A program made the position numbers and the translations under genes. Positions 39,058 to 63,360 of a stretch of DNA of 64,000 nt are shown here, one piece after another. The notes under the pieces were generated by a model that worked only from the letters and a program-made list of their open reading frames with translations, searched no databases and had not been told where the DNA came from. Source of the DNA: a virus; IMG/VR virus record IMGVR_UViG_3300045988_066443, one strand, 5' to 3'. Positions within the stretch are counted from its first letter, which is position 1; the number at the start of each line of letters is the position of its first letter.

Positions 39058-39694
39058 TTACTCTGGAAGTATGCCGTACTTCCATATGTAGCCATAAGCA
39101 TGGGTTATTTTATGATTGCAACAATCGGTGATATGTCTTTTGCAATTAACAGTTTTTGCTAGACCATTATCTACAAGCCATTGAGCTGCTTCTTCTCTTC
39201 CCCAGAAGTGCTATATATAATTGCCAGCCATATCAAATTGATCAATTTTCTTAGCAGACCCACCTCTGATTTTAATGTCATGAGCTTTCAATACTTTTCT
39301 TACAGTATCATCACTACATCCCACTTTCTCCGCAACTTTTTTTGCAAGTATATCCCATATTGTACAGTTCGATTATCTCTTGATAATCGTATAACTATGT
39401 TCCGTCACCACCCTTAGTAGCATTATAGCCTTTGGAGCCATAAGTTTCCAACTCTTTTATCCAATATACCTCTCTTTCTGAAAGTATGTTTTCGTCCTTT
39501 ACATATTCTAATTCCTCTACTATAAAGTTTTCAACTCCATATTTATTCATAGCATCATATAATGGACGTTTTTCACATCTTTCTTTTCGAGAATCCTTGC
39601 AGTGTTCCTAAAATCTTTCCTATATAGTAAAGAGGGTTTTACCAACGTATCTTTTATTGTTAATAATATTTGTAATGCAATAGATATATCCCAT
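39058..39694 (-). CDS. GIY-YIG homing endonuclease; intact only if 4 in-frame TAG codons are sense and one frame correction is made at an A7 run
   Basis: minus-strand translation MGYIYCITNIINNKRYVGKTLFTI[TAG]ERF[TAG]EHCKDSRKERCEKRPLYDAMNKYGVENFIVEELEYVKDENILSEREVYWIKELETYGSKGYNATKGGDGT[TAG]LYDYQEIIELYNMGYTCKK / frame change at aaaaaaa / VAEKVGCSDDTVRKVLKAHDIKIRGGSAKKIDQFDMAGNYI[TAG]HFWGREEAAQWLVDNGLAKTVNCKRHITDCCNHKITHAYGYIWKYGILPE*; no TAA/TGA internally. Confidence 0.5.
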
Positions 39695-39782
39695 ATCATA
39701 GACTATTTATAACATTATTAATAATTGATTGAATTAGCTTTACCCAAAACACACCACGTGGAGGTTTCAATCTTGTGTTTCT

Positions 39783-44304: not shown

Positions 44305-44427
44305 TCAAATAGCAGAATTTTTTTTACTCTCTAACAGGTCTATCCGTCTTTGTTGATTTTCCTCGTATTCTTCAATAGCGTCAGAAATTGCTTTAAGTAT
44401 AGAAGATTCCTTCATAGCGCTACTCAT
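44305..44427 (-). CDS. hypothetical small protein (40 aa)
   Basis: manual translation MSSAMKESSILKAISDAIEEYEENQQRRIDLLESKKNSAI; below the ORF-track cutoff. Confidence 0.2.
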   Translation of the reverse strand: MSSAMKESSILKAISDAIEEYEENQQRRIDLLESKKNSAI

Positions 44428-45300: not shown

Positions 45301-45975
45301 CTACTGCACAATCAAGCTATAAGCTTCTTGCAACAGTTTAATAGTTGGAACCATACGGTTATCAACAACTATTATTTTATAAATGTTCAGAATTTCTTTG
45401 TAGGTTAAAGATGTACAAGTTAGAAATATCTGCGCATCTTCGTTTACAGAACCATTTGACAATCCCAAATCTACTTTAATCATACTGGGTAATGTTCCAA
45501 TCTGAGAAATGTCCCAAGTAGATTTAGTTCTCCTGAAAACTTCCCGCTGTTTGGAAGTAAGTTGCTTTTCTTTCAATCTAGACTCAATAATAGTACCATC
45601 AAACGTTAACGAACCTCCATCGGTATTACTATTATTTAATGCTAGCTGAATCTTCTGAACTGCAGAGTCTTTAGGTTTTGGCTTAAGTTGCACTCCTTCC
45701 TTCAAGCCCTTAATAATCTGCAATGAAGGAATAAAGTCTTTTATTTGAGTTGCATTCCATACAAGAAATTTTCCAGGACTATCCTTAACAGTAACTATAT
45801 ACTTAGTCCCTCCGTTCAATGGAATAATCACTTGTAAGTCTGCATCACTCATTTTACTTAAATGGTCTGATACTCTAACTTTGACGTTTCCAATGACAAA
45901 GTAGCGAGAAACAGTTGTTTCCGCTTCGATAATCTCAGTAGCAGTTGCTACTAAATACTTTTCTAATCTAGTCAT
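45301..45975 (-). CDS. hypothetical protein (224 aa), TAG-terminated
   Basis: ORF; stop is TAG with an in-frame TAA 5 codons downstream. Confidence 0.4.
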   Translation of the reverse strand: MTRLEKYLVATATEIIEAETTVSRYFVIGNVKVRVSDHLSKMSDADLQVIIPLNGGTKYIVTVKDSPGKFLVWNATQIKDFIPSLQIIKGLKEGVQLKPKPKDSAVQKIQLALNNSNTDGGSLTFDGTIIESRLKEKQLTSKQREVFRRTKSTWDISQIGTLPSMIKVDLGLSNGSVNEDAQIFLTCTSLTYKEILNIYKIIVVDNRMVPTIKLLQEAYSLIVQ

Positions 45976-46969: not shown

Positions 46970-47058
46970 ATTTCTCTTTGTACCACCGTGCAAAATGCAC
47001 ATTTGTAAGTATCTTTATATCAGGATACCTCCCGTGCCAGGAATTGCTACAAAGAATG

Positions 47059-47621
47059 TGGACCTAACGGGAGTCGAACCCGTGTCCAAACAACCCTCGT
47101 TACAAGGATAACGTGCGTCTCATTTTTATTACACCAGCTAGGGAGTTCTAGCATTTAGGTAGTTTTATAAGTCTTACAAGAGTCCATACTAAGTATTTCT
47201 CTAGATGCTTATCTACAAGCTACCAAACTATAGGGCTGACCGAAGTCAACGTTCCACCACTCCATTTTACGTTGGAGAACGGGATGATACTTTAGAGATT
47301 CGTCACATCTCATGGAACACATCTTCCATCTGTTTTATGACATAGGAGATTCAGTCTTACTAACTCTTAGAGTGTTCCGATTAAGAGTATATTACTAGGA
47401 TTAGAGCCTAGCTCTCCATTATATCAATATACTCAACCTCTTCTGTTTCTAGGTCTCTCCTGTAACCCGACTTAGTTAATAGTGTCTACCAACAAGCCAG
47501 CAGCTTAGGCTGCCATTCTTACTTCGCTATAAGTAGCATTTATTGTTTTTCCTTCGTTTAAAGAGATTGCGCTCTACACGTCCTTATAATTTGTAATCGC
47601 CTGTCAAATCCAAGTAGGCCC
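47059..47621 (-). ncRNA. ssrA: tmRNA (ssrA-like transfer-messenger RNA)
   Basis: 563-nt ORF-free span. 5' end GGGCCTACTTGGATTTGACAGG matches the tmRNA 5' consensus GGGGCUGAUUCUGGAUUCGACGGG. 3' end GGACACGGGTTCGACTCCCGTTAGGTCCA is a tRNA-like T-arm. 7-bp acceptor pairing carries the G3-U70 alanine identity pair and discriminator A73. Candidate tag ORF ...AAU|GCU ACU UAU AGC GAA GUA AGA AUG GCA GCC UAA (ATYSEVRMAA). Confidence 0.7.
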
Positions 47622-47661: not shown

Positions 47662-47913
47662 TTATAACATTATAGTTGTACCCTCAGGTAGTGTTCGTAA
47701 CTTAGTATTAGTATAGTCTCTAGCACCCTTACTAAATATCTCAGGATAGTAAGAACAACTTCCTAATATAAATAGTGCAAGTCCACATCTTTGAATTATA
47801 TCTCCGTTAGATACTGTTCCATCCTCAAACCATTCTATCACTTCTGCAAATTCTCCATCCTTTAGGTCTTTAAGTTGGATTATATCAGAGGCCCTATTTA
47901 CTACTTTTGCCAT
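47662..47913 (-). CDS. hypothetical protein (83 aa)
   Basis: ORF. Confidence 0.35.
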   Translation of the reverse strand: MAKVVNRASDIIQLKDLKDGEFAEVIEWFEDGTVSNGDIIQRCGLALFILGSCSYYPEIFSKGARDYTNTKLRTLPEGTTIML

Positions 47914-49488: not shown

Positions 49489-49506
49489 AATTATTTAATT
49501 TTGTTG

Positions 49507-49579
49507 TGGACACGCAGGGACTCGAACCCTATCTTCCGGTGTGCAAAACCAGCGCTCTAGCCATTTGAGCTAACGGCCC
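49507..49579 (-). tRNA. tRNA-Ala (anticodon TGC), acceptor stem imperfect
   Basis: GGGCCGTTAGCTCAAATGGCTAGAGCGCTGGTTTTGCACACCGGAAGATAGGGTTCGAGTCCCTGCGTGTCCA; loop TTTGCAC; G3-U70 present but base pairs 5-7 do not pair with 66-68. Confidence 0.5.
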
Positions 49580-49843
49580 ATGTTTGAGATTTTCTTTTTA
49601 ATTGGTGACATAACTCATAAATTTCCACTGTTAGGATTCCATAACCTAACATCACCAGATAAGTCTTTAATTAGTTATATTCTGGATACATAAGTTTGTA
49701 ACTATATATCTTTTAACGGCAACCATCCGTTTAACAATTCTCAAGTTCAGCTTGCCTATTATAACTACGCAGGGACTGGCTTCGACTTATTAGCATAAAT
49801 GCTAACAGACCCCGACTGGATTTTTACCTTGCCAGGTTAGTAT

Positions 49844-50889: not shown

Positions 50890-51141
50890 ATATTATTTCC
50901 TCCCAGACATCTGTAAGTACCCCATTGGTACTTACCTTTTAATGATATTTTTACTCTTGTCCTCTGTATGGAGGAGGTATTGTTCCAGACACTAACCAAG
51001 TGTAGTTCTTAGAACTCTGTTCAAAATACCATTTAGCAGCTTTCTTTACAACATTAATTACTTTCTTCATAACATTAAAGTTTAAAATTGTTAATAATTA
51101 ATCTAATAACAGAGCCACAAAAGGAGTTTAGTTGCGGAGGT

Positions 51142-51158
51142 AGGATTATTTCCAAATA
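51142..51158 (-). repeat. 17-nt duplicate of the 3' end of the CAT tRNA-like gene (tgcggaggtaggatt)
   Basis: matches 51867-51883; lies just past the stop of the second GIY-YIG gene. Confidence 0.6.
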
Positions 51159-51205
51159 AATTTATATGCAGTTTTCAATTTCCCTTTTACACATAAACTA
51201 ATCTT

Positions 51206-51781
51206 CTAGCGAACACCTCCATTATAAGTTTTAGCATAACCATTGTCTACTAACCAGTGTGCAGCATCGGCTATACTGTTCCAAGTCCTGATAAAGTTAT
51301 TATTTAAATCATACTGAGATATTGATACAGGTTGCTTGCAACTTCCCAAATAAAATTTGTTCTTTGGTATATTGTTTATATTTATTACTTTAGAAACTGT
51401 ATCAACAGAACATTGCATTTTGGCGGAAACTTCAATCATTGTCATTCCGCTAGTATATAAAGATATTATTTCTTTATAATCGAATAAGATAGCTCCATCG
51501 CCTCCCATAGTAGCATTATAGCCATTTGAGTATGTGTCTAGCTTATCTATAAATTGAATTTCATAAGAAGCTAATTCCTCATCATCACATTCATACAGCT
51601 ACTCAACTATGAAGTTCTCGATCCCATACTTGTTCATAGCATCATATAGCGGCCTCTTTTCACATCTTTCCTTCTTGCAATCATTACAATGTTCTTTAAA
51701 TCTCTTAGTTACAGAATAAGTAGTTTTTCCAACATACTATTTTCCATTAATTAAATTTGTAATACAATAAATATATCCCAT
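51206..51781 (-). CDS. GIY-YIG homing endonuclease; full length only if 2 in-frame TAG codons are read as sense
   Basis: MGYIYCITNLINGK[TAG]YVGKTTYSVTKRFKEHCNDCKKERCEKRPLYDAMNKYGIENFIVE[TAG]LYECDDEELASYEIQFIDKLDTYSNGYNATMGGDGAILFDYKEIISLYTSGMTMIEVSAKMQCSVDTVSKVININNIPKNKFYLGSCKQPVSISQYDLNNNFIRTWNSIADAAHWLVDNGYAKTYNGGVR*. Single frame throughout. The first TAG (51737-51739) lies between the GIY and YVG motifs. Confidence 0.55.
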
Positions 51782-51865
51782 GTTCTATTCTTATTTAAAA
51801 TTAAACATATTAGTAAGATTAGCGTTATCCAACTCACACCACGTGGAGGTTCTTACTTGTGAGTC

Positions 51866-51945
51866 TTGCGGAGGTAGGATTCGAACCGTTTATGACGATT
51901 TCTAGGTTATGAGCCTAGCGAGATGACCAACTTCTCTACTCCACG
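51866..51945 (-). tRNA. tRNA-like gene with CAT anticodon, initiator-like C1 opposite A72, degenerate T-stem
   Basis: CGTGGAGTAGAGAAGTTGGTCATCTCGCTAGGCTCATAACCTAGAAATCGTCATAAACGGTTCGAATCCTACCTCCGCAA. Perfect D and anticodon arms, conserved GGTTCGAATCC, but T-stem pairs poorly and the variable region is 11 nt. Confidence 0.35.
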
Positions 51946-52158: not shown

Positions 52159-52244
52159 GTGACTACTTCTCCACCCCGTAAGACTAGCTATTCGGAGATA
52201 AGACCAGTTACAACTTGTAACTGCTGTGGAGCCTTGTTTCGTCG

Positions 52245-52326
52245 TTCCGATTAAAGGATTTGAACCTCTGACCTCCCACTAATGCTTTATTGGTATGGGC
52301 GCTCTACCATACTGAGCTAAATCGGA
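52245..52326 (-). tRNA. tRNA-like gene with an 8-nt-expanded anticodon arm (15-nt loop); anticodon unassignable
   Basis: TCCGATTTAGCTCAGTATGGTAGAGCG-CCCAT-ACCAATAAAGCATTA-GTGGG-AGGTCAGAGGTTCAAATCCTTTAATCGGAA; perfect acceptor, D and T arms. Confidence 0.35.
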
Positions 52327-53346: not shown

Positions 53347-53775
53347 TTAATCCCAATATTCTGGGCAGTTTTCAGTCATTAATAATCCCTTTTCGCAAAA
53401 GCCTTTATCATAGAAAATGCAGGATGAACACGAAAGATTGTCCCTAGATTCATATTCTTGAATACCTTCTTGAATATCTCTTTTTGCTTTATATCTATCC
53501 TTTCTATTCTCTTTCTTGTATTCATATTGCATCATTCTGCTTCTATAAGGAGAAGTACAATTCTTAAGCATCTTTGCGTATTTAGAACTATCAAGGAAAT
53601 CCGTAATTGACTCACAGACCTTCAACGCCTTATTCCTTATTATAGGAACATTATACCTTACATTGGCTTTAATCCCGGCAACAGGTACGTAAAATTTACC
53701 GCAAGCGTTGTAAACCTTTTTAGCTCTCGAAATCCACTTTCTTTTAGAAAGTTCTCTTCTCAATTCTCTATCCAT
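53347..53775 (-). CDS. hypothetical basic protein
   Basis: track ORF 53347..53922 trimmed to the internal Met (MDRELRRELS...) because its 5' part overlaps the tRNA at 53796-53869. Confidence 0.35.
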   Translation of the reverse strand: MDRELRRELSKRKWISRAKKVYNACGKFYVPVAGIKANVRYNVPIIRNKALKVCESITDFLDSSKYAKMLKNCTSPYRSRMMQYEYKKENRKDRYKAKRDIQEGIQEYESRDNLSCSSCIFYDKGFCEKGLLMTENCPEYWD

Positions 53776-53795
53776 AAGCAATAAGATTAGTGTAG

Positions 53796-53869
53796 AATCT
53801 AGAGTGGGATTCGAACCCACGAAACACGGTTTTGCAGACCGTTCCCTTAGACCGCTCGGGCATCTAGAC
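53796..53869 (-). tRNA. tRNA-Cys (anticodon GCA), second copy, 3-bp D-stem
   Basis: GTCTAGATGCCCGAGCGGTCTAAGGGAACGGTCTGCAAAACCGTGTTTCGTGGGTTCGAATCCCACTCTAGATT. Confidence 0.65.
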
Positions 53870-53896
53870 ATAAAGGGGAGACTAGCTCCCCAAGTT

Positions 53897-55309
53897 TTAT
53901 AGTACCAAAGAGTTGTAAGCACCTCTACGATACAGAGACGGTTTACTATTTGGATCTTTAATCCAGTAGTAATTAATTTCGTTGCCGTCTTTAGTAACTA
54001 CGATTCCTAGTTTCTTGTCAATCGCAATAATTTCGTCATCATAGAAGTCATCTCCAACTGCCAGATTTGCGAACTTAATATCCGAAGATACATAGTAATA
54101 TGACAGATTGTGGAAATTGTGGCGGCGATATTCATAATACTCGTTAAGAGCTTTTCTTTCCTCAACAGTACAGTTATCCTCATCGTCTACAATGGGCTTT
54201 GGCATCGGATTGTTGAATCTCTCAACAGCTTTAGAGAACTCCTCAATAGAGAATTTACTCTTATCAGCAGAAATCTCACCAGCATATGCATAACCTCTAA
54301 TGCAGGAATAGTTATACTCATTAGTTACTACGTTGAAGAAGCCTTTAGCTCTTCTCAATCCTTCTATACCGTGAATATTGACCTCATTAACTATAGTTTT
54401 GAGAATATCAATAGTAGATATAGTCAAAGAATCAATGAAATCAAGCAAATCTTGACGAGCTCCCGGCACTTGAAGTGCGTCGTCCAGATATTCGTTCACA
54501 ACCTTCAAATCCAAGTTGCCAAATTCCTTGACATAACGGATTCTAGACGGACGTCCTACCATATTCTCATTGATGGTCATAGCATTAGTAGTAAGCAGGA
54601 AAACCTTGCGATACTTAGAGTTGTAAACACCGTCCATGATTTGCAAGATAGTAGAATCCGATTCACTGAAATTCTTTTCAAATTCATCCAAGAACAGAAT
54701 GCAATCTCCTTCAATACCAGAAAGGAACTCAATCATAGATTGATTATGGTCTCCCATATCCTTTACGATAATGATGGGCAGATTTAGCTTGTTAGCCAGT
54801 TCCTTAGCAGTAACAGTCTTTCCAGTGCCCTTTGTACCAGTAAGCATAATTCCGAGATTGCCTTCTGTAGCGTGATACGTCTTAATTACATGGTCAATAA
54901 ACTCGTTCTGCAAGCCATACATTTTGTACGGGAATACAAACTTATCCGCATATCTGTCTAGGTGATAACCTGTCATTGTCAGACAAATACTGTAGATTCC
55001 AACTGGGAGAGACTGCTCAACGCTATAGCCTGAGCTTACCTGGGTATATGTAGACCCAGAACACATCCAAACTTTGTTCATTTTTTCTTTTTCTAAGTTA
55101 CTTAAAACAGATGCCTGTTTGAGACATCCTACTAATTGATTAGCTATAGATTCTATAGCTTCTTTGTTATCAGTTTCCTCTGAGAGTCTTTTTACAAACC
55201 ACTCTTTAGAACGGGCAACTATTTGCTCATCAGTCTCATTTTCAGAGATTGTTTCAGCAAATTCATGGTAGATACTAGTCAGCTTACCTTCTAATTCTTC
55301 TACGGTCAT
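53897..55309 (-). CDS. AAA+ ATPase (470 aa)
   Basis: Walker A IMLTGTKGTGKTVT; Walker B CILFLDEFEKN. Confidence 0.6.
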   Translation of the reverse strand: MTVEELEGKLTSIYHEFAETISENETDEQIVARSKEWFVKRLSEETDNKEAIESIANQLVGCLKQASVLSNLEKEKMNKVWMCSGSTYTQVSSGYSVEQSLPVGIYSICLTMTGYHLDRYADKFVFPYKMYGLQNEFIDHVIKTYHATEGNLGIMLTGTKGTGKTVTAKELANKLNLPIIIVKDMGDHNQSMIEFLSGIEGDCILFLDEFEKNFSESDSTILQIMDGVYNSKYRKVFLLTTNAMTINENMVGRPSRIRYVKEFGNLDLKVVNEYLDDALQVPGARQDLLDFIDSLTISTIDILKTIVNEVNIHGIEGLRRAKGFFNVVTNEYNYSCIRGYAYAGEISADKSKFSIEEFSKAVERFNNPMPKPIVDDEDNCTVEERKALNEYYEYRRHNFHNLSYYYVSSDIKFANLAVGDDFYDDEIIAIDKKLGIVVTKDGNEINYYWIKDPNSKPSLYRRGAYNSLVL

Positions 55310-55473
55310 TAGTAATCCTCCTCGTTATGTTCATTAGTTATGAGAGAACGAGCCTTTTCCATACCAGATTCGTAAGCCTCTGTAACAAACACTATGGCAG
55401 TTTTTAGGTCCATTTGACCCATGGAATTGCCATTGTCTACCATCTCCTGAATAATTTCACTTAACTCTTTCAT
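55309..55473 (-). CDS. hypothetical small protein (54 aa)
   Basis: manual translation MKELSEIIQEMVDNGNSMGQMDLKTAIVFVTEAYESGMEKARSLITNEHNEEDY; its TAA overlaps the ATG of the downstream ATPase (TAATG). Confidence 0.3.
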   Translation of the reverse strand: MKELSEIIQEMVDNGNSMGQMDLKTAIVFVTEAYESGMEKARSLITNEHNEEDY

Positions 55474-55495
55474 ATTACTTAATAAATAAAAGTTG

Positions 55496-55577
55496 TAGGG
55501 TAGGAGGGACTCGAACCCTCACGCCTTGCGGCACTAGATCCTAAGTCTAGCGCGTCTACCAATTCCGCCACTACCCC
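55496..55577 (-). tRNA. tRNA-Leu (anticodon TAG), type II
   Basis: GGGGTAGTGGCGGAATTGGTAGACGCGCTAGACTTAGGATCTAGTGCCGCAAGGCGTGAGGGTTCGAGTCCCTCCTACCCTA. Confidence 0.8.
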
Positions 55578-55655
55578 AACTGTTAGGTTGCTTTTATTTC
55601 TTTAGCAACCTTAACCATTTCGTTATATTTCTCTACTACTTTATTAAAGTCTTCT

Positions 55656-56045
55656 TCAGATATTTGAAAAAACTTTGTGAGAGTTTCCATACCACTCTTC
55701 TTGACCAGGAAGCCACATTACATTAATATATCTCTTCTTTTCTAATTCCATATGTACCTTAGATGAATCAATATAAACTGAATAGGCATCCTCTTCGATT
55801 CTACTACTTCGTGGATCTGTTGGGTCGGATGTAAGTCTGAAAAACATTGTTGACATACCATTGAAGTCTATCTTGAAACACTTTCCTATATAGCTTTTAA
55901 GTAGTGCTTTATGTCTATTATCGCTATCTACCTTCTCTTGGTGTCTCTTCCGTTCTTCTTCCTTAACATATTCATTATACTCTCTTAGAGAGCTATCTGG
56001 ATGCTTGTCCAGGTATTCTTCTATAGGACTCTTTCTTCCCCACAT
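55656..56045 (-). CDS. hypothetical protein (129 aa)
   Basis: ORF. Confidence 0.35.
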   Translation of the reverse strand: MWGRKSPIEEYLDKHPDSSLREYNEYVKEEERKRHQEKVDSDNRHKALLKSYIGKCFKIDFNGMSTMFFRLTSDPTDPRSSRIEEDAYSVYIDSSKVHMELEKKRYINVMWLPGQEEWYGNSHKVFSNI

Positions 56046-56046
56046 A

Positions 56047-56457
56047 TTATACTACTTTAAGATGGCAATAAATACTAAATTCTGGAATTGGAATCCAAGT
56101 TGCAATACCATTGCTATCTACTGGTTTACCCTTGTTGATTGTACAAATAGTGATATGAGGTTTAGCATTTGCACAAGGCAGATATTGGTCTCCCAATTCT
56201 ACTCCAAAAGCTATTGCTTTCTCAGAAATCCCTATTTTGTTTACAATTAATCGAAAATTACCATCTATACGATATTGTAGGTCATTAGCCATCTCTTCTT
56301 CATGTTGATTTTTATGGAGAAGAGTGCAATGATCTAAATAAATAGTACTTCCTCTTTGGAACACCAGATTGCAAATGATGGGATTTCCAATGATAACTTG
56401 CATAAGTTTGTTTCTAGTTGGTTCATCTAAGAACAATCCAAAATACTGATAATTCAT
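56047..56457 (-). CDS. hypothetical protein (136 aa)
   Basis: ORF. Confidence 0.35.
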   Translation of the reverse strand: MNYQYFGLFLDEPTRNKLMQVIIGNPIICNLVFQRGSTIYLDHCTLLHKNQHEEEMANDLQYRIDGNFRLIVNKIGISEKAIAFGVELGDQYLPCANAKPHITICTINKGKPVDSNGIATWIPIPEFSIYCHLKVV

Positions 56458-56595
56458 AAGTTTTATTTTTTAATTATTTGAAATCAGACCTCATACCCGT
56501 TCCATGGAGCGCAATATAAGCCGACTATACTCGTGGCAACCTATATTACTTGATATGTCTTTTCGGTTGTACTACTTTCTCCGTATCTGATTATG

Positions 56596-56664
56596 TGAAC
56601 CTATTGGGACTTGAACCCAAATCTAGCCAACGCGTCTAGACCTTTATTCCAATTAGGTAGGCTC
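56596..56664 (-). tRNA. degenerate 69-nt tRNA-like gene; anticodon arm with a 9-nt loop or mismatched stem
   Basis: GAGCCTACCTAATTGGAATAAAGG-TCTAG-ACGCGTTGG-CTAGA-TTTGGGTTCAAGTCCCAATAGGTTCA; good acceptor and T arm; no nt 8-9 spacer; 1-nt variable loop. Confidence 0.3.
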
Positions 56665-56669
56665 AAGTG

Positions 56670-56744
56670 TGGACCTAGAGGGCTTTGAACCCCCGACCTT
56701 CTGATTATGAGTCAGCTGCTCTGACCGGACTGAGCTATAGGTCC
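56670..56744 (-). tRNA. tRNA with CAT anticodon (elongator Met or lysidine-type Ile2)
   Basis: GGACCTATAGCTCAGTCCGGTCAGAGCAGCTGACTCATAATCAGAAGGTCGGGGGTTCAAAGCCCTCTAGGTCCA. Confidence 0.75.
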
Positions 56745-56750
56745 TAAATA

Positions 56751-56960
56751 TTATTCGTATGCACTTATTGATTTGCATTCAAATATTACTGTCTTCCCTA
56801 GAACATCGCTTGGTTTTATATTAAACTTAGCAAATTCTAGCATCAACTTTTCCATTTCTTCTACAGAATGGGTTTCTCCTATGATACTTTTTCTATCTAT
56901 AGAAGTTTGAAAATTGGCAAACAATTCTGTAACTAAACAACTATTAATTATTACTCTCAT
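56751..56960 (-). CDS. hypothetical small protein (69 aa)
   Basis: ORF. Confidence 0.3.
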   Translation of the reverse strand: MRVIINSCLVTELFANFQTSIDRKSIIGETHSVEEMEKLMLEFAKFNIKPSDVLGKTVIFECKSISAYE

Positions 56961-57120
56961 TTCTTACTATTATTTGTTCTTCTGGTTTTAACTTTTCTGC
57001 TGCATCAGAGTGTAGCTTACCACACCTAACACACCAACAAACTCCGAATGAATTTTCCCGGACTTTACATTTACCTTTGTCACAAAACTTGACAACCTTT
57101 CTATAATCTTCTGGCTTCAT
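56944..57120 (-). CDS. hypothetical Cys-rich small protein (58 aa)
   Basis: manual translation MKPEDYRKVVKFCDKGKCKVRENSFGVCWCVRCGKLHS...; ATGA overlap with the upstream gene. Confidence 0.3.
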   Translation of the reverse strand: MKPEDYRKVVKFCDKGKCKVRENSFGVCWCVRCGKLHSDAAEKLKPEEQIIVRNESNN

Positions 57121-57443
57121 AATTTAGAACGTATATCGTTAATTAACGCTTGAATCATATGAGTTTGTTCTCTCCATTTGTAATGAAATTCAAGACTGTT
57201 AGACTCTTCTTCAGTTAATGGAATATGAAATAATATCTTGTGGTGTATATTTTTAAACCATTTCCTCTCAAGTTTTCTACTTTCCTTAGTTCCTACCTCA
57301 TATCCTCTCTTAGATTTACGGTTCTTAGAACGACCACGTGCCCAACCAAATTGTTTGCCATCATTCACCCATTTCCAGTCTGCTCTGGCTTCTTTTTGCC
57401 TAAGCCTCTTGTTAATGATATTAATCTTTTCTATCTCTTCCAT
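57117..57443 (-). CDS. hypothetical basic protein
   Basis: track ORF 57117..57551 trimmed to the internal Met (MEEIEKINII...) to avoid overlap with the tRNA at 57458-57529. Confidence 0.35.
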   Translation of the reverse strand: MEEIEKINIINKRLRQKEARADWKWVNDGKQFGWARGRSKNRKSKRGYEVGTKESRKLERKWFKNIHHKILFHIPLTEEESNSLEFHYKWREQTHMIQALINDIRSKL

Positions 57444-57457
57444 ATTTGTTAATTTTG

Positions 57458-57529
57458 TTGGGCTACTAGGACTCGAACCTAGACTGACAGAATCAAAATC
57501 TGTAGTGCTAACCATTACACCATAGCCCA
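57458..57529 (-). tRNA. tRNA-Gln (anticodon TTG)
   Basis: TGGGCTATGGTGTAATGGTTAGCACTACAGATTTTGATTCTGTCAGTCTAGGTTCGAGTCCTAGTAGCCCAA. Confidence 0.85.
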
Positions 57530-57593
57530 ATTTTGGCTTAGCTATTCTCACGAACCACTAAGTCTATTTACCATGAAAAACACACAATGCAAG

Positions 57594-57670
57594 TGGGACG
57601 AGGCAGGATCGAACTGCCGCTAACGTCCTGGATTTTCAGTCCAGCGCTCTACCTACTGAGCTATCGTCCC
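57594..57670 (-). tRNA. tRNA-Phe (anticodon GAA)
   Basis: GGGACGATAGCTCAGTAGGTAGAGCGCTGGACTGAAAATCCAGGACGTTAGCGGCAGTTCGATCCTGCCTCGTCCCA. Confidence 0.8.
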
Positions 57671-57692
57671 ATATCCGTTTATAATGTAAAGG

Positions 57693-57728
57693 CATAGATG
57701 AAGTAAACGGATAAAACCTTCATCTATG
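57693..57728. repeat. perfect 11-bp inverted repeat hairpin (catagatgaag / 14-nt loop / cttcatctatg)
   Basis: read directly in the 255-bp non-coding gap downstream of tRNA-Phe. Confidence 0.5.
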
Positions 57729-57925
57729 GAAAAGAGTCCCAAAGCAAGTTATGCATTTCCGAGTATGTTACGCACGTACTAAGGCGACTTCAACGGACTT
57801 AAGGTTATTAGCATTGCGCACTACTAATAGCGTTTTGCTGGATTTATCCCTCAGCCATCCACTCTATATACTACATAAGGGGTCTATGCAGTCGATAGTC
57901 TACTAAGTGCACTTTCAACTATCAG

Positions 57926-58180
57926 TTATTCCAATTCTAGTATTTTTTTGTTCCACCAGTTAGTTAAATCCTGTAAAGAAAACTTAAATTCTTTTTCAAA
58001 GTCTTCTAACGGAACAACTTCTTCTCCTACTTCTATAGCCCACTGCCAACACGCTTCTACTTCTGCTAGTTCAATAGGCTCCTCACATAGCCAAGTATCA
58101 TCTAGAAGCATACTGAGAAATTCTTTATGAAGGCTTCTAAATATTTCAATTTTATCTTCCATGAACTTTATGATTTTCAT
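57926..58180 (-). CDS. hypothetical protein (84 aa)
   Basis: ORF. Confidence 0.3.
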   Translation of the reverse strand: MKIIKFMEDKIEIFRSLHKEFLSMLLDDTWLCEEPIELAEVEACWQWAIEVGEEVVPLEDFEKEFKFSLQDLTNWWNKKILELE

Positions 58181-58571
58181 CCTGATTCACGAACTCTGCC
58201 TTAAGTTTATCCTTATAAAGCGGAATGATAGTATCAGCAGAATCAGTAAAACAAAAGTATTGTCCATTACTAAGTCTTTGGAAACGGATATACTTTATCC
58301 ACCAATGGTCAATAGAATCCAATACCAAATGCCTCCAGTCTCCCTCGCCACCAGATGCAGTCTCTAAACTCTTTAGTAGAGGAATAACTTCGTCCTTATT
58401 AAACGAACATTGCTCCACTACAGCTTGATTCTTTTTCAGGAAATTGGTTAATACTTCCCAGGGTTCGTCTATGGCGTCATGAACGACCATATAAAAATCT
58501 CTTGTATCGCAGTGTGCACATTCAAAATCGGATAGCTCTGCGATTGAATCTATGTATTTCCATTCGCTCAT
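58152..58571 (-). CDS. hypothetical protein (139 aa)
   Basis: ORF. Confidence 0.35.
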   Translation of the reverse strand: MSEWKYIDSIAELSDFECAHCDTRDFYMVVHDAIDEPWEVLTNFLKKNQAVVEQCSFNKDEVIPLLKSLETASGGEGDWRHLVLDSIDHWWIKYIRFQRLSNGQYFCFTDSADTIIPLYKDKLKAEFVNQDENHKVHGR

Positions 58572-58595
58572 ATCTAATAATTATTTAAGTTAATG

Positions 58596-58683
58596 CGGAG
58601 GCAGCTGGATTCGAACCAGCGGGACCCTTTTGAGGCCCGGAGTCTTAGCAGGACTCTGGTTTAGACCGCTCACCCATACCTCC
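58596..58683 (-). tRNA. tRNA-Ser (anticodon GCT), type II
   Basis: GGAGGTATGGGTGAGCGGTCTAAACCAGAGTCCTGCTAAGACTCCGGGCCTCAAAAGGGTCCCGCTGGTTCGAATCCAGCTGCCTCCG; discriminator G. Confidence 0.8.
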
Positions 58684-58743
58684 AAATTGCGAAGGGGCTT
58701 TTGTTATACTTTACTAATTCTTTGTAAAGCCCCTTCGCTGTGA

Positions 58744-60702
58744 TTACTTCACTTCTTCAAACTCAGTAGCTTCTGCTTGCTTCTTGCCGAACATTTCCTT
58801 TACTGTGTCAGCGAAAGGAATAGAACGTAACAAGTCAAGAGCAGGATTCAAGTTCTCAGCAGTCTTAGCCATGAAATTACCAGCGGTATTCTCATTACCA
58901 TAAACAGTAACCTGTCCAAGGTGAATGTGTTCAAACATCTGAGCAGATGCCTGAGCAATACCGGCCAATTGGTCAACAGTCTTGTACTGAACCACCATTT
59001 GTGGAGTCAAGCCAGATTCAATCATCTTCTCAACTGCCAAGGCTGGAGCCATTTCGATAGCTTGAACCTTATCAGCTTCTGCCATCAATGATGCTCTCTT
59101 ACCTTCAGCTTCAGCAAGCAATTTCTTGCGAGTACCTTCTGCCTCTGCTTCTAACTGCAGTTTAGTAGCGTCAGCTTTCGCTTCTGCTTCTTTCAAAATC
59201 TTTGCAGCTTCTGCTTCTGCTTCCAATACCGCTTTGGCTTTAATTGCTTCTGCTTCAATAGTTACTCTCTCTTTTTGTTTCTGAGCAGGAACAATCATTT
59301 CAGCTTGAAGTTTTGCTTCCTCTGCCTTAGCAGCAGCTTCGTTAACCTCAATCTGGCGTTCTTGTTCTGTTTTGGCTACAGCCATTCTTGCTTCTACTTT
59401 AGAAGTACCAGCTACCTTTTCTGCTTCAGCTTGTGCCTGTGCAGCTTCTCCTTTTGCCTTTGATACTTCAATAGTTGCTTTCTGCTCAGCTACTCCAGCT
59501 TGCTTGTCAGCTTCTGCAGCCTTAATTCTCTTCTGAGACTCATACTCTGCAGTAGCAGCTTCTTGCTCATTAATTGCTTTCTGAGTGTCTGCTTCCTGCT
59601 TTTGCTTAGCTTGAGCAATACGAGTTTGCTTCAGAGCTTCAGCTTCAGCTTTCTTAGAATCTGCTTCTGCCTTAGCTTTAGCTACATTAGCTTCTGCTTC
59701 TGCGTCAGCAGCAGCTTTCTTAGAAGCAGCCTCTGAAGCGGATTTCGCTACATTAGCTATTCTCTGAGATTCAGCTTCAGCTTTAGCTGATTCTGCTTGA
59801 GTGTTTGCACGAGCAATACTAGCTTCTTGTTCCGCCTTCTGTTCAGCGATACCAGCTTGTTTGTTCTTTTCTGCTTCTGCCAAGCGAATAGCTTTCTCCT
59901 GATTAATCTCAGCAACCTTTACTTCCTGTTCTTGCTTAGTTTGAGCAACTGTAGTTTCTCTTTCCTTTTCAGCATCGGCTACGGCAATCTCACGCTGTTT
60001 GTTGGTTTCTGCAATCTGAATATCTCCTTTCTTCTTCTCTTCTGCAATGTCAGCCTGTGCCTGAGCAAGAGCTTTAGTTGCAGCTTTCTGACCAAGATTC
60101 TTGATATAGTTCGCATCATCCGAGATATCAGCGTTGTTAATATTGATAATACTGAAACCTACCTTGTTCAACTCAGTTTCAATATTCTCTTTTGCCTTGC
60201 CGATAAATTTGATTCTATCAGCATTTATTTCCTCAATCGTCATTGTTGCCATCAAGCTTCTCACTTCACCGATGAGAATATCCTTGATTTGGTCTGAGAT
60301 TTCAGAAGTTTTAGCTGTTAAGAATCTGCTTGCAGCGTTTTGCATTAGTACTTGATCGGTTCCTATACCAGTAGTTAATGTCACAGGAATCCTAACCTTA
60401 ATCATTTGGCTGGATACTCCCTCTACCATTACCTGAATCTGAATAGGTTTCAAGGACATTTTAGCCCAGTCTTGAATGACAGGCATTACGAATGTACCTC
60501 CGCCGTGGATGATTTTAGACGGCAGTATAACTTCCTCCGTTTTACCAGTCTTCTCGTTAACTACCTTCTTCTTTCCTGCCTTACCAAATACTACCAGGAT
60601 TTCATCACTAGCACACTTACGATACCGAGACAAAAGTCCGATAAAAGTTACAACTACTAAGAGTACAATAACACCCGCTACAATAAGAGTTTCTGTTGTC
60701 AT
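58744..60702 (-). CDS. flotillin-like SPFH/band-7 protein with a long Ala/Glu/Lys/Gln-rich coiled-coil repeat region
   Basis: 652 aa; N-terminal TM helix plus SPFH domain (...ILVVFGKAGKKK...IIHGGGTFVMPVIQ...), then about 330 aa of low-complexity AEAEAKA-type repeats. Confidence 0.75.
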   Translation of the reverse strand: MTTETLIVAGVIVLLVVVTFIGLLSRYRKCASDEILVVFGKAGKKKVVNEKTGKTEEVILPSKIIHGGGTFVMPVIQDWAKMSLKPIQIQVMVEGVSSQMIKVRIPVTLTTGIGTDQVLMQNAASRFLTAKTSEISDQIKDILIGEVRSLMATMTIEEINADRIKFIGKAKENIETELNKVGFSIININNADISDDANYIKNLGQKAATKALAQAQADIAEEKKKGDIQIAETNKQREIAVADAEKERETTVAQTKQEQEVKVAEINQEKAIRLAEAEKNKQAGIAEQKAEQEASIARANTQAESAKAEAESQRIANVAKSASEAASKKAAADAEAEANVAKAKAEADSKKAEAEALKQTRIAQAKQKQEADTQKAINEQEAATAEYESQKRIKAAEADKQAGVAEQKATIEVSKAKGEAAQAQAEAEKVAGTSKVEARMAVAKTEQERQIEVNEAAAKAEEAKLQAEMIVPAQKQKERVTIEAEAIKAKAVLEAEAEAAKILKEAEAKADATKLQLEAEAEGTRKKLLAEAEGKRASLMAEADKVQAIEMAPALAVEKMIESGLTPQMVVQYKTVDQLAGIAQASAQMFEHIHLGQVTVYGNENTAGNFMAKTAENLNPALDLLRSIPFADTVKEMFGKKQAEATEFEEVK

Positions 60703-60717
60703 CTTTAAAAATTCTTT

Positions 60718-61245
60718 TTAGTTAAAATAATACTTTCCATTCTCAAATTTTGAAATTCTCACTTTGTCCCCGTTTTTATACGTCTTATGCTCTTCTTCAG
60801 CATAAGCTGACAATTCTTGAAGCATTCCATTTATCTCAACTAAGATAACAGAGCTACCACCAGAAATATCATTAGGGATAGTGATTGTTCCAATTCTCCC
60901 GATTAAGGCTTCACCCTTTTCAGGAATAACTTGATGTTGGAGTTTTAAACAAAGTTTATATAAGTAGTAAAGTATAACCACAAAAAGAATACCGCATATT
61001 AATGCGATTAAATAATCATACCATTCTATAGAATGAGAAACGGAATGCTTAATACAAAGCCATCCACTTGCTCCCATTACAAAATGTACTAGTCCTTTAA
61101 AAGAGACAATATCACTCACATCCATGTCCAATTCTCCATCTAAATCTACATCCAAGTCAGTGTCGCCACCAAACCAAGAGAGTATGAACTGAACAATAAA
61201 AATGCCATACGAAATGGCTGCTAAGAGATAATAAGTTTCGCTCAT
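60718..61245 (-). CDS. NfeD-like membrane protein (partner of the SPFH protein)
   Basis: 175 aa; N-terminal TM helices plus C-terminal beta-rich domain; directly downstream of the flotillin gene, in the usual operon arrangement. Confidence 0.5.
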   Translation of the reverse strand: MSETYYLLAAISYGIFIVQFILSWFGGDTDLDVDLDGELDMDVSDIVSFKGLVHFVMGASGWLCIKHSVSHSIEWYDYLIALICGILFVVILYYLYKLCLKLQHQVIPEKGEALIGRIGTITIPNDISGGSSVILVEINGMLQELSAYAEEEHKTYKNGDKVRISKFENGKYYFN

Positions 61246-61460: not shown

Positions 61461-61483
61461 AAGTTTTTAGTTATTGATATTTG

Positions 61484-61556
61484 CATAGGATAAAAGGGTC
61501 GAACTCTTACTTTCAGTTTTGGAGACTGACGTGCTAACCATTAACACTAATCCTAT
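61484..61556 (-). tRNA. tRNA-Trp (anticodon CCA)
   Basis: ATAGGATTAGTGTTAATGGTTAGCACGTCAGTCTCCAAAACTGAAAGTAAGAGTTCGACCCTTTTATCCTATG; all stems perfect. Confidence 0.85.
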
Positions 61557-61562
61557 AGATTG

Positions 61563-61654: not shown

Positions 61655-62210
61655 ATTATAATGAAACCTTATATTTATCCCAATCACTGGTTAATGTCAA
61701 GGCTCCTTTAACATTTATTTCACTTGAGGGAATCTCATACATGTCCCCAGTTATAACTACTACAAATACTACATCACAAGTAGAATTATCAAAATGTCTA
61801 ATCTTAGAATCTCCAGATGAACCTCCGCAATTCTTCAACAAGACTTCATAATTTCCACTCTTTACCTAATGTTGAGTAGTTTTAACTGATACTCTCTTCA
61901 AACCCTCTTTATCTACTACAATGTCATATTTCTATGTATCATTCAAGGGAATTAGGACCGGAATGCAATGAGCAGTATAGTATGCTATAGCTCTTCCTAG
62001 TCCTAAATTCCCTTGATGAGATTTATACTAACTTTCCCAAGCGTTCATTTTTTACAAAATTTGTATTAGATTTTCATCTTTACGATTACATTAAACCTGA
62101 CTCTGCCACCCTTCCAAAAGCTAGTCTTATGACTAGCTAAGAATCATACCAAGAAGCAATAATACACAGAATATAGCTAGAATACACCAGCCTATAGCCT
62201 GGATTGCTCC

Positions 62211-63354: not shown

Positions 63355-63360
63355 ATCAAA

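What the first reader, a model, noticed from the sequence alone, without database searches (positions are those of the whole stretch)
51206..51781. An intact GIY-YIG homing endonuclease that needs two in-frame TAG codons read as sense
Reading the minus strand from the ATG at 51781 gives one continuous frame encoding a complete GIY-YIG enzyme of about 195 aa, with N-terminal GIY...YVG catalytic motifs and a C-terminal DNA-binding region. It is interrupted only by two TAG codons and contains no TAA, no TGA and no frameshift. The first TAG (plus 51737-51739) falls between the GIY and YVG motifs (NGK-TAG-YVGKT), where I-TevI-type enzymes carry an ordinary residue (NNK-V-YVGSA). The second TAG falls in FIVE-TAG-LYECDD. 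Random decay would mix all three stop codons with indels. Exclusive use of TAG at conserved sense positions is the signature of amber suppression or TAG-to-Gln recoding (code-15-like, as reported for some crAss-like and Lak phages). No tRNA with a CUA anticodon is present in the tRNA array in this window. The suppressor may therefore sit elsewhere in the genome, or HEG expression may be gated on a suppressor supplied in trans.
Basis: partly seen in the sequence, partly recalled or inferred. Interest (0 to 1): 0.85.

Follow-up and report, generated by a model that had tools for sequence, protein, structure and literature searches.

The report
Amber-recoded homing endonuclease in gut phage
An intact, mobile GIY-YIG homing endonuclease gene in a roughly 186-kb human-gut crAss-like phage carries three in-frame TAG codons, which the phage most likely reads as glutamine with its own suppressor tRNA 8 kb outside the window; this is a known kind of phage code switch, found here on a selfish gene cassette that also carries a small ribozyme.

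Summary
The minus-strand gene runs 51781..51146 and encodes 211 aa. Contigs at least 99.9% identical to the window carry a tRNA with anticodon CUA 8.15 kb beyond its end. That tRNA is a paralogue of the phage tRNA-Gln(UUG). Late genes nearby are full of TAGs (the terminase has 15), whereas the window's early genes have none. Twelve distinct GIY-YIG paralogues in related phages carry only TAG stops, and Gln is the commonest residue opposite them. HEG1 is a 734-bp island that is present or absent between strains. It is 99.7% identical between backbones whose flanks are only 74-90% identical, so it is active. TAG-to-Gln recoding in crAss-like gut phages is published, and so is the idea that recoded stops delay endonuclease production. 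This is therefore a new member of a known kind. One side result may be new. Each cassette starts with a minimal HDV-like ("theta") ribozyme abutting a tRNA 3' end, and ends with a copy of that tRNA end.

The parts
51146..51781 (-). HEG1: free-standing GIY-YIG homing endonuclease gene, 211 codons plus a TAA stop. It is readable only if three TAGs are decoded as sense codons.
   Evidence: frame and stops; Pfam PF01541, 39.6 bits; I-TevI alignment, catalytic residues kept; the exact Gln-substituted protein is already present on 455 public contigs.
51737..51739 (-). In-frame TAG 1 (codon 15), between the GIY and YVG motifs. Without suppression, translation would stop after 14 aa.
   Evidence: the paralogues have Arg at this column.
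51599..51601 (-). In-frame TAG 2 (codon 61, FIVE-TAG-LYEC).
   Evidence: the paralogues have Glu or Cys here, and I-TevI has Glu.
51206..51208 (-). In-frame TAG 3 (codon 192).
   Evidence: the 19 residues after it align with the C-termini of the paralogues.
51812..51865 (-). Minimal HDV-like ('theta'-type) self-cleaving ribozyme candidate at the 5' end of the HEG1 cassette. Its G1 directly follows the last base of the tRNA.
   Evidence: Structural descriptor parse with P1, P2, P3, P1.1 and a catalytic C. Seven distinct variants have fully covarying P1 and P2 helices. A sub-threshold Rfam hit to RF02682 scores 25.2 bits, E=0.004, over the whole model.
51866..51945 (-). tRNA-Met(CAU) with a C1/A72 mismatch. 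Its 3' end is the insertion point of the HEG1 cassette.
   Evidence: 38.5 bits; the empty-site alleles L051 and L064 have the same tRNA followed directly by CTAAACTCC.
51132..51147 (-). Second copy of the 16-nt tRNA 3' end (AATCCTACCTCCGCAA; the first copy is at 51866-51881). It closes the 734-bp cassette (51132-51865) and overlaps the HEG1 stop codon.
39058..39694 (-). HEG2: a paralogous GIY-YIG gene with four TAGs (39620-22, 39608-10, 39395-97, 39211-13). In this window it also has one extra A in an A-run (about 39343) that shifts the frame.
   Evidence: Four related strains have the same four TAGs and no frameshift.
39727..39781 (-). Second copy of the HDV-like ribozyme, directly after tRNA-Leu(UAA) and upstream of HEG2. 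The cassette ends with a 12-nt repeat of the tRNA-Leu 3' end (39782-39793 and 39044-39055).
61656..62048 (-). A third endonuclease gene, of the PD-(D/E)XK family (PDDEXK_5, I-Ssp6803I-like), 130 aa. It has three in-frame TAGs (62028-30, 61932-34, 61866-68) and lies directly upstream of tRNA-Ser(UGA).
   Evidence: PF11645, 39.7 bits. An 85%-identical orthologue has CAA (Gln) at the second TAG.
57457..57529 (-). tRNA-Gln(UUG), the closest relative of the off-window suppressor tRNA(CUA).

Best explanation
The window is the early (DNA and nucleotide metabolism plus tRNA array) region of a roughly 186-kb human-gut crAss-like phage that reassigns TAG from stop to glutamine late in infection. HEG1 is an intact, recently mobile, free-standing GIY-YIG homing endonuclease. 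Its three TAGs are ordinary Gln codons in that second code.

Shown:
- The gene is full length and has only TAG stops.
- The same phage encodes a tRNA-Gln-derived suppressor with anticodon CUA 8.15 kb past the window.
- Late genes are dense in TAG, and early genes lack it.
- TAG aligns with Gln in paralogues and orthologues.
- The HEG1 cassette is present or absent between strains with exact boundaries, and it is nearly identical between diverged backbones.

Inferred:
- Before the suppressor acts, ribosomes stop at codon 15. The endonuclease is therefore made only together with late proteins.
- The cassette is co-transcribed with the tRNA array.
- The 5' HDV-like ribozyme cuts exactly at the tRNA-Met 3' end. 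This would give the tRNA its proper 3' end and free the HEG mRNA.
- The enzyme cuts HEG-less alleles in or next to the tRNA gene, and repair copies the cassette in.
For: Gene anatomy.

Suppressor tRNA: ARAGORN calls anticodon CTA in L002 and L003. These contigs are 99.9% and 100% identical to window 53361-64000 and 58640-64000. The Rfam tRNA score is 66.3 bits. The nearest paralogue is tRNA-Gln(UUG). The suppressor is present in 37 of 38 related loci.

Genome-wide recoding: the gene caller of the long contigs read through TAGs. TerL has 15 TAGs against 16 CAA/CAG codons, and neighbouring late ORFs have 6/12, 3/5 and 7/12.

Early genes: the large window genes match their profiles end to end without any TAG. 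None of the 14 other genes called in the part of L002 that overlaps the window has an internal TAG.

TAG equals Gln: in the GIY-YIG alignment Gln is the top residue opposite TAG (27 of 153), including a column with Gln in 11 sequences and TAG in 1. In PDDEXK_5, the conserved HQG and DTQ columns alternate between Gln and TAG, with TAG against CAA at the codon level.

Activity and mobility: occupied and empty sites are compared. Between the window and L082 the HEG1 coding sequence has 2 differences, both synonymous, while the flanks are 74-90% identical. Against L072 the coding sequence has 12 nucleotide differences and only 1 amino-acid change.

The exact Q-substituted protein is present on 455 public contigs.
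Against: - The suppressor tRNA is not in the window itself. Its presence is inferred from near-identical contigs.
- There is no expression, charging or peptide evidence.
- Reassignment is not complete. Three window genes end at TAG (47894-96, 45301-03, 44420-22), each with a TAA or TGA 2-8 codons later.
- One HNH endonuclease gene in the window (19041-19508) has no TAG, so not every endonuclease is gated.
- HEG2 in this window is frameshifted, so some copies decay or the assembly has a homopolymer error.
- The timing argument rests on the early/late codon pattern, not on data.
Confidence: 0.88

Rival explanations
1. HEG1 is a decaying pseudogene whose nonsense mutations happen to be TAGs.
For: HEG2 in this window has a frameshift, and one related copy (L117) has indels, so copies of this family do decay.
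Against: All 17 stop-bearing columns in 12 distinct paralogues are TAG, with no TAA or TGA, in a genome of 36% GC. The three TAGs are retained in all eight HEG1-like copies found. Substitutions between copies are almost all synonymous. The cassette is a 99.7%-identical island in diverged backbones. A cognate suppressor tRNA exists.
Confidence: 0.02
2. The TAGs are read, but their presence in the endonuclease genes is a neutral by-product rather than a timing device. Any gene that is not needed before the code switch drifts from CAG or CAA to TAG. Mobile HEGs that shuttle between recoded genomes simply carry average late-gene codon usage.
For: The TAG share of Gln positions is similar in the endonuclease genes (HEG1 3 of 7, PDDEXK_5 3 of 5) and in late genes (TerL 15 of 31). 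TAG positions differ between paralogues, as drift would predict. One orthologous PDDEXK_5 gene has no TAG at all, and the HNH gene has none.
Against: The first TAG sits at codon 15 in HEG1, at codons 25 and 29 in HEG2, and at codon 7 in PDDEXK_5, which gives a tight block. Preferential recoding of an intron endonuclease family was statistically significant in another clade (Borges et al. preprint). Neither point is decisive here.
Confidence: 0.4
3. The HEGs are recent immigrants from a different code-15 phage and are not expressed in this genome.
For: HEG cassettes move horizontally between diverged backbones.
Against: This lineage itself has the suppressor tRNA and TAG-rich late genes. At least six GIY-YIG subtypes and two PDDEXK_5 subtypes are resident across 38 or more genomes of the lineage. 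Substitutions point to purifying selection.
Confidence: 0.03
4. TAG is decoded as an amino acid other than Gln, for example by the second, anticodon-polymorphic tRNA.
For: Many columns opposite TAG hold Arg, Glu, Lys, Ser or Ala rather than Gln. A second tRNA locus carries CTA, TTA or TTG in different strains, and its identity is unclear.
Against: The conserved suppressor is clearly a tRNA-Gln paralogue. Gln is the single most frequent partner of TAG, and the only strongly conserved columns that contain a TAG are Gln columns. Gln at TAG has been shown by metaproteomics in other crAss-like phages (PMC9523058, abstract seen).
Confidence: 0.05

Closest known systems
Genetic code 15 (TAG to Gln) in crAss-like, Lak and other gut phages (Borges et al. 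preprint 10.1101/2021.08.26.457843; Peters et al. PMC9523058; zeta crAss-like phages PMC12386605)
   Same: A phage-encoded tRNA(CUA). In-frame TAGs concentrated in structural and packaging genes. Early and replication genes compatible with the standard code. Human-gut origin. A large genome with a tRNA array, a CCA-adding enzyme and an RNA ligase.
   Different: Nothing essential differs. Clade membership was not established by phylogeny: TerL is only 26-28% identical to named crAss-like terminases and 42-45% identical to unnamed gut contigs.
Recoded group I intron endonuclease of Agate phages (Borges et al.)
   Same: An endonuclease gene embedded in an early region is rich in the recoded stop codon. 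The proposed effect is that no endonuclease is made until the code switch.
   Different: In Agate the codon is TGA read as Trp, and the gene sits inside a self-splicing intron. Here the codon is TAG read as Gln, and the genes are free-standing beside tRNA genes, preceded by an HDV-like ribozyme instead of being inside an intron.
Phage T4 SegB (PMC2330249) and I-TevI
   Same: The GIY-YIG catalytic domain with Tyr, Tyr, Arg, Glu and Asn intact. A free-standing gene inside a phage tRNA cluster. Present or absent between related phages.
   Different: There is only distant sequence similarity (I-TevI E=3e-4). T4 uses the standard code and limits seg and I-TevI expression by promoters and mRNA structure, not by stop codons (own knowledge).
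Theta ribozymes: minimal HDV-like ribozymes at phage tRNA 3' ends (Kienbeck et al. 2024, PMC10879173)
   Same: A minimal P4. The cleavage site lies within 1 nt of a tRNA 3' end. tRNA-Met and tRNA-Leu are the partner tRNAs. The host is a gut Caudoviricetes phage with code 15, a CCA-adding enzyme and an RNA ligase.
   Different: That paper does not mention endonucleases or homing. Here the ribozyme is absent from the empty allele and travels with the GIY-YIG gene. In an IMG/VR sample, only 11 of 67 distinct ribozymes with this core are followed by a GIY-YIG gene.
E. coli supE (tRNA-Gln with anticodon CUA)
   Same: A tRNA-Gln whose anticodon has changed to CUA inserts Gln at amber codons (own knowledge).
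   Different: supE is a weak host suppressor allele. Here the tRNA is a dedicated, conserved phage gene.
HDV-like ribozymes at the 5' end of R2 and other non-LTR retrotransposons
   Same: A selfish element that is co-transcribed with a host structural-RNA gene uses a 5' HDV-like ribozyme to cut itself free (own knowledge).
   Different: Those are eukaryotic RNA-mediated elements inserted in rRNA genes. This is a DNA homing cassette beside tRNA genes in a phage.

Membership tests
GIY-YIG homing endonuclease | GIY-YIG catalytic domain above the curated threshold | tested here: met
   PF01541 scores 39.6 bits (cut-off 22.6) for HEG1 and 45.0 bits for HEG2.
GIY-YIG homing endonuclease | Catalytic residues equivalent to I-TevI Y6, Y17, R27, E75 and N90 | tested here: met
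   The phmmer alignment to 1MK0/1LN0 matches IYcI, YVG, KRfKeH, yEiqfI and NGYN. The residue numbering is from my own knowledge of I-TevI.
GIY-YIG homing endonuclease | C-terminal DNA-binding module | tested here: inconclusive
   For HEG1, NUMOD1 (20.7 bits against 22.8) and HTH_28 (18.2 against 25) fall below their cut-offs. For HEG2, HTH_28 and HTH_7 are above their cut-offs.
GIY-YIG homing endonuclease | Mobility: presence/absence polymorphism with defined boundaries | tested here: met
   Empty sites are seen in L051 and L064. The occupied site has a 734-bp insert with a 16-nt repeat. The island is 99.7% identical between backbones whose flanks are 74-90% identical. There are at least 5 insertion sites across strains.
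GIY-YIG homing endonuclease | Site-specific DNA cleavage of the HEG-less allele | not testable with these tools
   This needs purified TAG-to-CAG protein and empty-site DNA.
Code-15 (TAG to Gln) recoded phage | Phage-encoded tRNA with anticodon CUA | tested here: met
   The tRNA lies 8.15 kb outside the window, on contigs 99.9-100% identical to it.
Code-15 (TAG to Gln) recoded phage | Conserved genes interrupted only by in-frame TAG | tested here: met
   TerL has 15 TAGs, and other late ORFs have 3-7. Six endonuclease gene families also carry only TAG stops.
Code-15 (TAG to Gln) recoded phage | TAG aligns with Gln in homologues | tested here: met
Code-15 (TAG to Gln) recoded phage | TAG no longer used as a terminator | tested here: inconclusive
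   Three early genes in the window end at TAG, each with a back-up TAA or TGA 2-8 codons later. All 39 genes called in L002 end in TAA or TGA.
Code-15 (TAG to Gln) recoded phage | Gln found at TAG positions in peptides | not testable with these tools
   Metaproteomics is required.
HDV-like / theta ribozyme | Nested double pseudoknot (P1, P2, P3, P1.1) with a catalytic C opening J4/2 | tested here: met
   P1 and P2 covary over 7 distinct variants. The C is invariant, and the GG after P1 and the CC in L3 are invariant. There were no other descriptor hits in 2.1 Mb.
HDV-like / theta ribozyme | G1-U wobble at the cleavage site; cleavage site within about 1 nt of a tRNA 3' end | tested here: met
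   G-U is seen in 6 of 7 variants and G-C in one. G1 at 51865 follows the tRNA end at 51866, and G1 at 39781 abuts tRNA-Leu.
HDV-like / theta ribozyme | Score above an Rfam gathering threshold | tested here: not met
   RF02682 scores 25.2 bits against 44, and RF01787 scores 19.7 against 37. No theta-specific model gave a hit at the gathering threshold.
HDV-like / theta ribozyme | Self-cleavage in vitro, abolished by mutating the catalytic C to U | not testable with these tools
   This is a wet-lab assay.
Crassvirales, zeta clade | TerL groups with zeta crAss-like phages; genome above 150 kb; many mobile elements; TAG or TGA suppression | tested here: inconclusive
   Genomes are about 185-192 kb. 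TerL is 26-28% identical to crAss-like terminases. The traits match the description in PMC12386605. No phylogeny was made.

The most novel reading that the evidence does not exclude
The unit that moves is a composite selfish cassette with three parts. The first is an HDV-like (theta) ribozyme. The second is a GIY-YIG endonuclease gene locked by amber codons. The third is a 12-16-nt copy of the target tRNA's 3' end. The cassette homes into the 3' end of phage tRNA genes. The ribozyme would restore a correct tRNA 3' terminus and release the endonuclease mRNA, much as self-splicing introns hide their insertion. The TAGs would confine endonuclease synthesis to the post-switch phase and to code-15 phages. 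If so, at least some 'theta ribozymes' described as tRNA-maturation devices are parts or relics of homing cassettes.
Probability: 0.45. Interest if true: 0.65.

Novelty: new member of a known kind. Interest (0 to 1): 0.35.

Why it matters
On its own the finding is a clean, well-controlled example of a known phenomenon. It shows that a standard-code annotation of this very common gut phage breaks real genes into fragments: IMG calls a 60-aa 'hypothetical protein' where a 130-aa endonuclease is encoded.

It also gives a natural system in which a selfish nuclease is translationally locked to the phage's code switch.

The ribozyme-endonuclease-tRNA-end cassette, if confirmed, would link three separately described features of gut phages: theta ribozymes, homing endonucleases in tRNA arrays, and stop-codon recoding. 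It would also suggest how theta ribozymes spread.

Tried and rejected
1. I compared ORF coverage in the window under different stop-codon sets. Making TAG a sense codon adds no more coding length than making TGA or TAA sense, because the window is the TAG-free early region. The test is uninformative inside the window, so I moved to flanking sequence.

2. I searched the window for a hidden suppressor. ARAGORN at lower stringency adds tRNA-Ala(TGC) at 49506-49580 plus three low-stringency calls inside genes, but no CTA, TTA or TCA anticodon. The odd 'tRNA-Tyr(ata)' at 52244-52326 has no CTA in its 15-nt loop.

3. Walking beyond window position 1 gave only more early genes (PolA, CCA-adding enzyme, PNKP, Thg1) and no late genes.

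4. Minimum-free-energy folding of the suppressor tRNA and of the HEG1 leader did not reproduce the cloverleaf or the pseudoknot. Single-sequence MFE cannot predict these folds, so I used covariance-model and descriptor evidence instead.

5. The MAFFT alignment of the leader element (A1) put the 5' strands out of register, so I did not run the count of structure pairs on it. Helices were parsed by script instead.

6. I first read the conserved CCACGTGG palindrome as a possible operator or promoter. I dropped that reading once the HDV-like fold explained it as P3/L3.

7. I considered that theta ribozymes might always accompany HEGs. This is rejected: only 11 of 67 distinct IMG/VR ribozymes with this core have a GIY-YIG gene within 400 nt.

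8. I did not run a large homologue search or a structure prediction, because the paralogue and orthologue alignments already answered the question.
Full report
**Observation.** On the minus strand an ATG at 51779-51781 opens a frame encoding MGYIYCITNLINGK*YVGKT.... The frame then runs 19 more codons to a TAA at 51146-51148. The gene therefore encodes 211 aa with three TAGs and no TAA, TGA or frameshift. Pfam assigns a GIY-YIG domain (39.6 bits; cut-off 22.6), with sub-threshold NUMOD1 and HTH matches in the C-terminal half. A phmmer alignment to I-TevI (1MK0, 1LN0) keeps the catalytic Tyr, Tyr, Arg, Glu and Asn. It places the first TAG opposite I-TevI V16 and the second opposite a Glu.

**The window.** It has 36% GC and nearly all genes are on the minus strand. 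It encodes NrdD, nicotinamide phosphoribosyltransferase, RNA and DNA ligases, helicases and an AAA ATPase, all matching profiles end to end. It also has 21-22 tRNA genes between 39.7 and 63.4 kb and a tmRNA-like gene. None of the tRNAs has anticodon CTA. Two other endonuclease genes show the same anomaly. One is a paralogous GIY-YIG gene at 39058-39694 with four TAGs. The other is a PD-(D/E)XK (PDDEXK_5) gene at 61656-62048 with three TAGs. Inside the window, making TAG a sense codon does not improve ORF coverage more than the control reassignments do, because this is the TAG-free early region.

**Identity of the genome.** GenBank phage records hold only unannotated fragments from human faeces. 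Exact-protein look-ups place the window on contigs of 111-378 kb. IMG/VR holds about 40 relatives, many of 185-192 kb. The 787-aa ORF beyond the window is 26-28% identical to annotated crAss-like large terminases. Several traits match published descriptions of zeta crAss-like phages (PMC12386605) and of theta-ribozyme phages (PMC10879173). These traits are the size, the tRNA array, the CCA-adding enzyme, the RNA ligase, the many endonuclease genes and the stop-codon suppression. I did not make a phylogeny, so clade membership remains probable rather than shown.

**The suppressor.** L002 is 99.9% identical to window 53361-64000, and L003 is 100% identical to window 58640-64000. Both extend 9.8 kb past the window end. 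Both carry a tRNA with anticodon CTA 8.15 kb beyond position 64000. It scores 66.3 bits on the Rfam tRNA model over its full length. Its sequence is a clear paralogue of the phage tRNA-Gln(UUG) at window 57457-57529, at 78% identity against 69% for the next best tRNA. It is present and nearly invariant in 37 of 38 related loci.

**Genome-wide recoding.** On the long contigs the public gene caller read straight through TAGs. For example, PDDEXK_5 is called as a 130-aa product, and every called gene in L002 ends in TAA or TGA. Just beyond the suppressor, TerL has 15 in-frame TAGs against 16 CAA/CAG codons. Neighbouring ORFs have 6, 3 and 7 TAGs. In contrast, among the 15 genes called in the part of L002 that overlaps the window, only PDDEXK_5 has internal TAGs. 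Three window genes end at TAG, each with a second stop 2-8 codons later.

**What TAG encodes.** Twelve distinct full-length GIY-YIG sequences from this lineage have TAGs at 17 columns. Gln is the commonest residue opposite them (27 of 153). One column has Gln in 11 sequences and TAG in one. In the PDDEXK_5 family, the conserved HQG and DTQ columns alternate between Gln and TAG. An 85%-identical orthologue has CAA where the window has TAG. Together with the tRNA's ancestry, this supports Gln.

**Is HEG1 alive?** The site between tRNA-Met(CAU) and tRNA-Asn is occupied in the window, L001, L056, L072 and L082, and is empty in many strains. Aligning empty alleles (L051, L064) with the window defines a 734-bp insert (51132-51865). 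It starts immediately after the last base of the tRNA and ends with a second copy of the tRNA's last 16 nt. Between the window and L082, the segment 51131-51929 differs at 2 positions, both synonymous. The sequence on either side is 74% and 90% identical, and the wider flanks are 75-82% identical. Against L072, the coding sequence has 12 differences and one amino-acid change. All eight HEG1-like copies found keep three TAGs. This is the signature of a recently spreading element that is under selection. The exact protein with Gln at the three sites is already in public collections on 455 contigs, without a name. HEG2 is intact, with the same four TAGs, in four related strains. The window has one extra A in an A-run, which is either a recent inactivation or a homopolymer error.

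**A ribozyme at the front of the cassette.** The 110 nt upstream of most GIY-YIG paralogues share the core ACCTCCACGTGGT. In the window it occurs only twice, and both copies lie upstream of a GIY-YIG gene. A permissive Rfam search gives a full-model, sub-threshold match to an HDV-like ribozyme (RF02682, 25.2 bits, E=0.004) at 51801-51865.

The sequence fits the HDV-like fold as follows:
- P1: GACTCAC pairs with GTGAGTT, with a G1-U wobble.
- P2: AGTAAGA pairs with TCTTACT.
- P3: ACC pairs with GGT.
- L3: TCCACGT. Its CC can pair with the GG that follows P1, forming P1.1.
- P4: minimal.
- J4/2: CTAA, opening with the presumed catalytic C.

A structure-only descriptor finds exactly these elements and nothing else in 2.1 Mb of window plus loci. 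The seven distinct variants have six different P1 helices and five different P2 helices, all complementary. G1 (51865) directly follows the tRNA-Met 3' end (51866). The second copy (39727-39781) abuts tRNA-Leu(UAA), and its cassette ends with a 12-nt repeat of that tRNA's 3' end. The empty allele lacks the ribozyme, so in this lineage it travels with the endonuclease gene.

These are theta-type ribozymes as defined by Kienbeck et al. 2024. That paper does not mention endonucleases or homing. No paper in the searchable library combines HDV-like ribozymes, homing endonucleases and tRNA. The link is not universal. Eleven of these are followed within 400 nt by a GIY-YIG N-terminus, including distant ones with one TAG or none.

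**Mechanism.**

Shown:
- An intact GIY-YIG gene with three TAGs.
- A Gln-type amber suppressor in the same phage.
- TAG-rich late genes and TAG-free early genes.
- A mobile cassette with exact boundaries.

Inferred:
- Early in infection, ribosomes terminate at HEG1 codon 15.
- Once the suppressor is active, the endonuclease is made along with late proteins.
- The cassette is transcribed with the tRNA array.
- The ribozyme cuts at the tRNA 3' end.
- The enzyme cleaves HEG-less alleles in co-infections.

Whether the TAGs are a selected timing device or neutral drift cannot be decided here. The TAG share in the endonuclease genes (43-60%) is about that of late genes (33-48%).

**Comparison and novelty.** TAG-to-Gln recoding with phage suppressor tRNAs is established for crAss-like, Lak and other gut phages, with protein-level proof in two crAss-like phages. 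Borges et al. already reported an intron endonuclease family that is preferentially recoded (TGA) in an early gene of Agate phages. They proposed that this delays endonuclease production. The given finding is thus a new member of a known kind. The composite of ribozyme, endonuclease gene and tRNA-end repeat is the part that may be new.

**Verdict.** Interest is modest for the finding as given, and higher for the cassette architecture if it is confirmed.

Noticed in passing
window 51812-51865 (-) and 39727-39781 (-): Minimal HDV-like ('theta'-type) ribozyme candidates lie directly after tRNA-Met(CAU) and tRNA-Leu(UAA), each 30-35 nt upstream of a GIY-YIG start codon. P1 and P2 covary across 7 variants. 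The element is absent from the empty allele. The link to homing endonucleases was not found in the literature I searched.
   Followed up: yes
window 51866-51881 / 51132-51147 and 39782-39793 / 39044-39055: Each GIY-YIG cassette is bracketed by a direct repeat of the target tRNA's 3' end (16 nt and 12 nt). The downstream copy overlaps or follows the endonuclease stop codon.
   Followed up: partly
window 39330-39346 (A-run; extra A at about 39343): HEG2 is frameshifted by one extra A relative to four intact relatives (L108, L110, L111, L112). This is either a recent inactivation or a homopolymer assembly error.
   Followed up: yes
window 61656-62048 (-): A PD-(D/E)XK (PDDEXK_5, I-Ssp6803I-like) endonuclease gene with three in-frame TAGs sits directly upstream of tRNA-Ser(UGA). 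It is present or absent between strains. An 85%-identical orthologue without TAGs and a second paralogue between two tRNA-Tyr genes exist in relatives.
   Followed up: partly
L002 4000-4070 (+), about 5.8 kb beyond the window end; loci L012-L049 at about 6200-7400: A second ~71-nt tRNA varies in its anticodon between strains: CTA in 19 loci, TTA (ochre type) in 11, and TTG in L002. The sequence is otherwise closely similar. An ochre-type anticodon is odd in a phage whose main stop codon is TAA.
   Followed up: partly
L002 3767-3973 (+), outside the window: A RAGATH-14 RNA (RF03145, 156.6 bits, above the gathering score) lies immediately upstream of the anticodon-polymorphic tRNA.
   Followed up: no
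window 47056-47621 (-): A phage-encoded tmRNA-like gene (Rfam RF00023, 62.5 bits). It spans 566 nt against a 374-position model, so it probably has an insertion. ARAGORN calls a tmRNA at the equivalent place in L055 but not in the window.
   Followed up: no
window 52244-52326 (-): A tRNA-like gene (52.9 bits) has a 15-nt anticodon loop. ARAGORN calls it Tyr(ata) here and Ser(act) or Leu(aag) in relatives. In many strains it is absent, and a GIY-YIG gene ('HEG3', six TAGs) plus a small ORF occupy the interval between tRNA-Gly(GCC) and tRNA-Met(CAU) instead.
   Followed up: no
window 51866-51945 (-): The tRNA-Met(CAU) next to HEG1 has a C1/A72 mismatch (initiator-like), a long variable region and a T-stem with only two clear pairs. 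It scores only 38.5 bits. The sequence is the same in the empty alleles, so the oddity is not caused by the insertion.
   Followed up: partly
window 47894-47896, 45301-45303, 44420-44422 (-): Three early genes end at TAG, each followed by TAA or TGA 2, 5 or 8 codons later. They would gain short C-terminal extensions after the code switch. The L001 orthologue of the first ends in TAA.
   Followed up: partly
window 19041-19508 (-): An HNH endonuclease gene (NUMOD4 + HNH_3) has no in-frame TAG, so not all endonuclease genes here are recoded. A different HNH gene beyond the window (L002 7833-8219) has two TAGs.
   Followed up: no
L062 11258-12064, L067 11266-12072, L070 11266-12582: These are chimeric GIY-YIG genes, with an N-terminal ~40 aa of the HEG3 type joined to an HEG1-type body. 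In L070, a deletion fuses HEG1 in frame to a downstream gene. This points to recombination between paralogous cassettes.
   Followed up: no
window 49506-49580 (-): tRNA-Ala(UGC) is found by Rfam (39.5 bits) and by low-stringency ARAGORN, but is missed by the default ARAGORN run.
   Followed up: partly
window 120-965 and about 958-1200 (-); L008 10846-11169: A sigma-70-like factor gene is flanked by small genes with Pfam hits to Sequestin (PF21825) and Tad2-like (PF11195). These are families linked to anti-defence functions.
   Followed up: no
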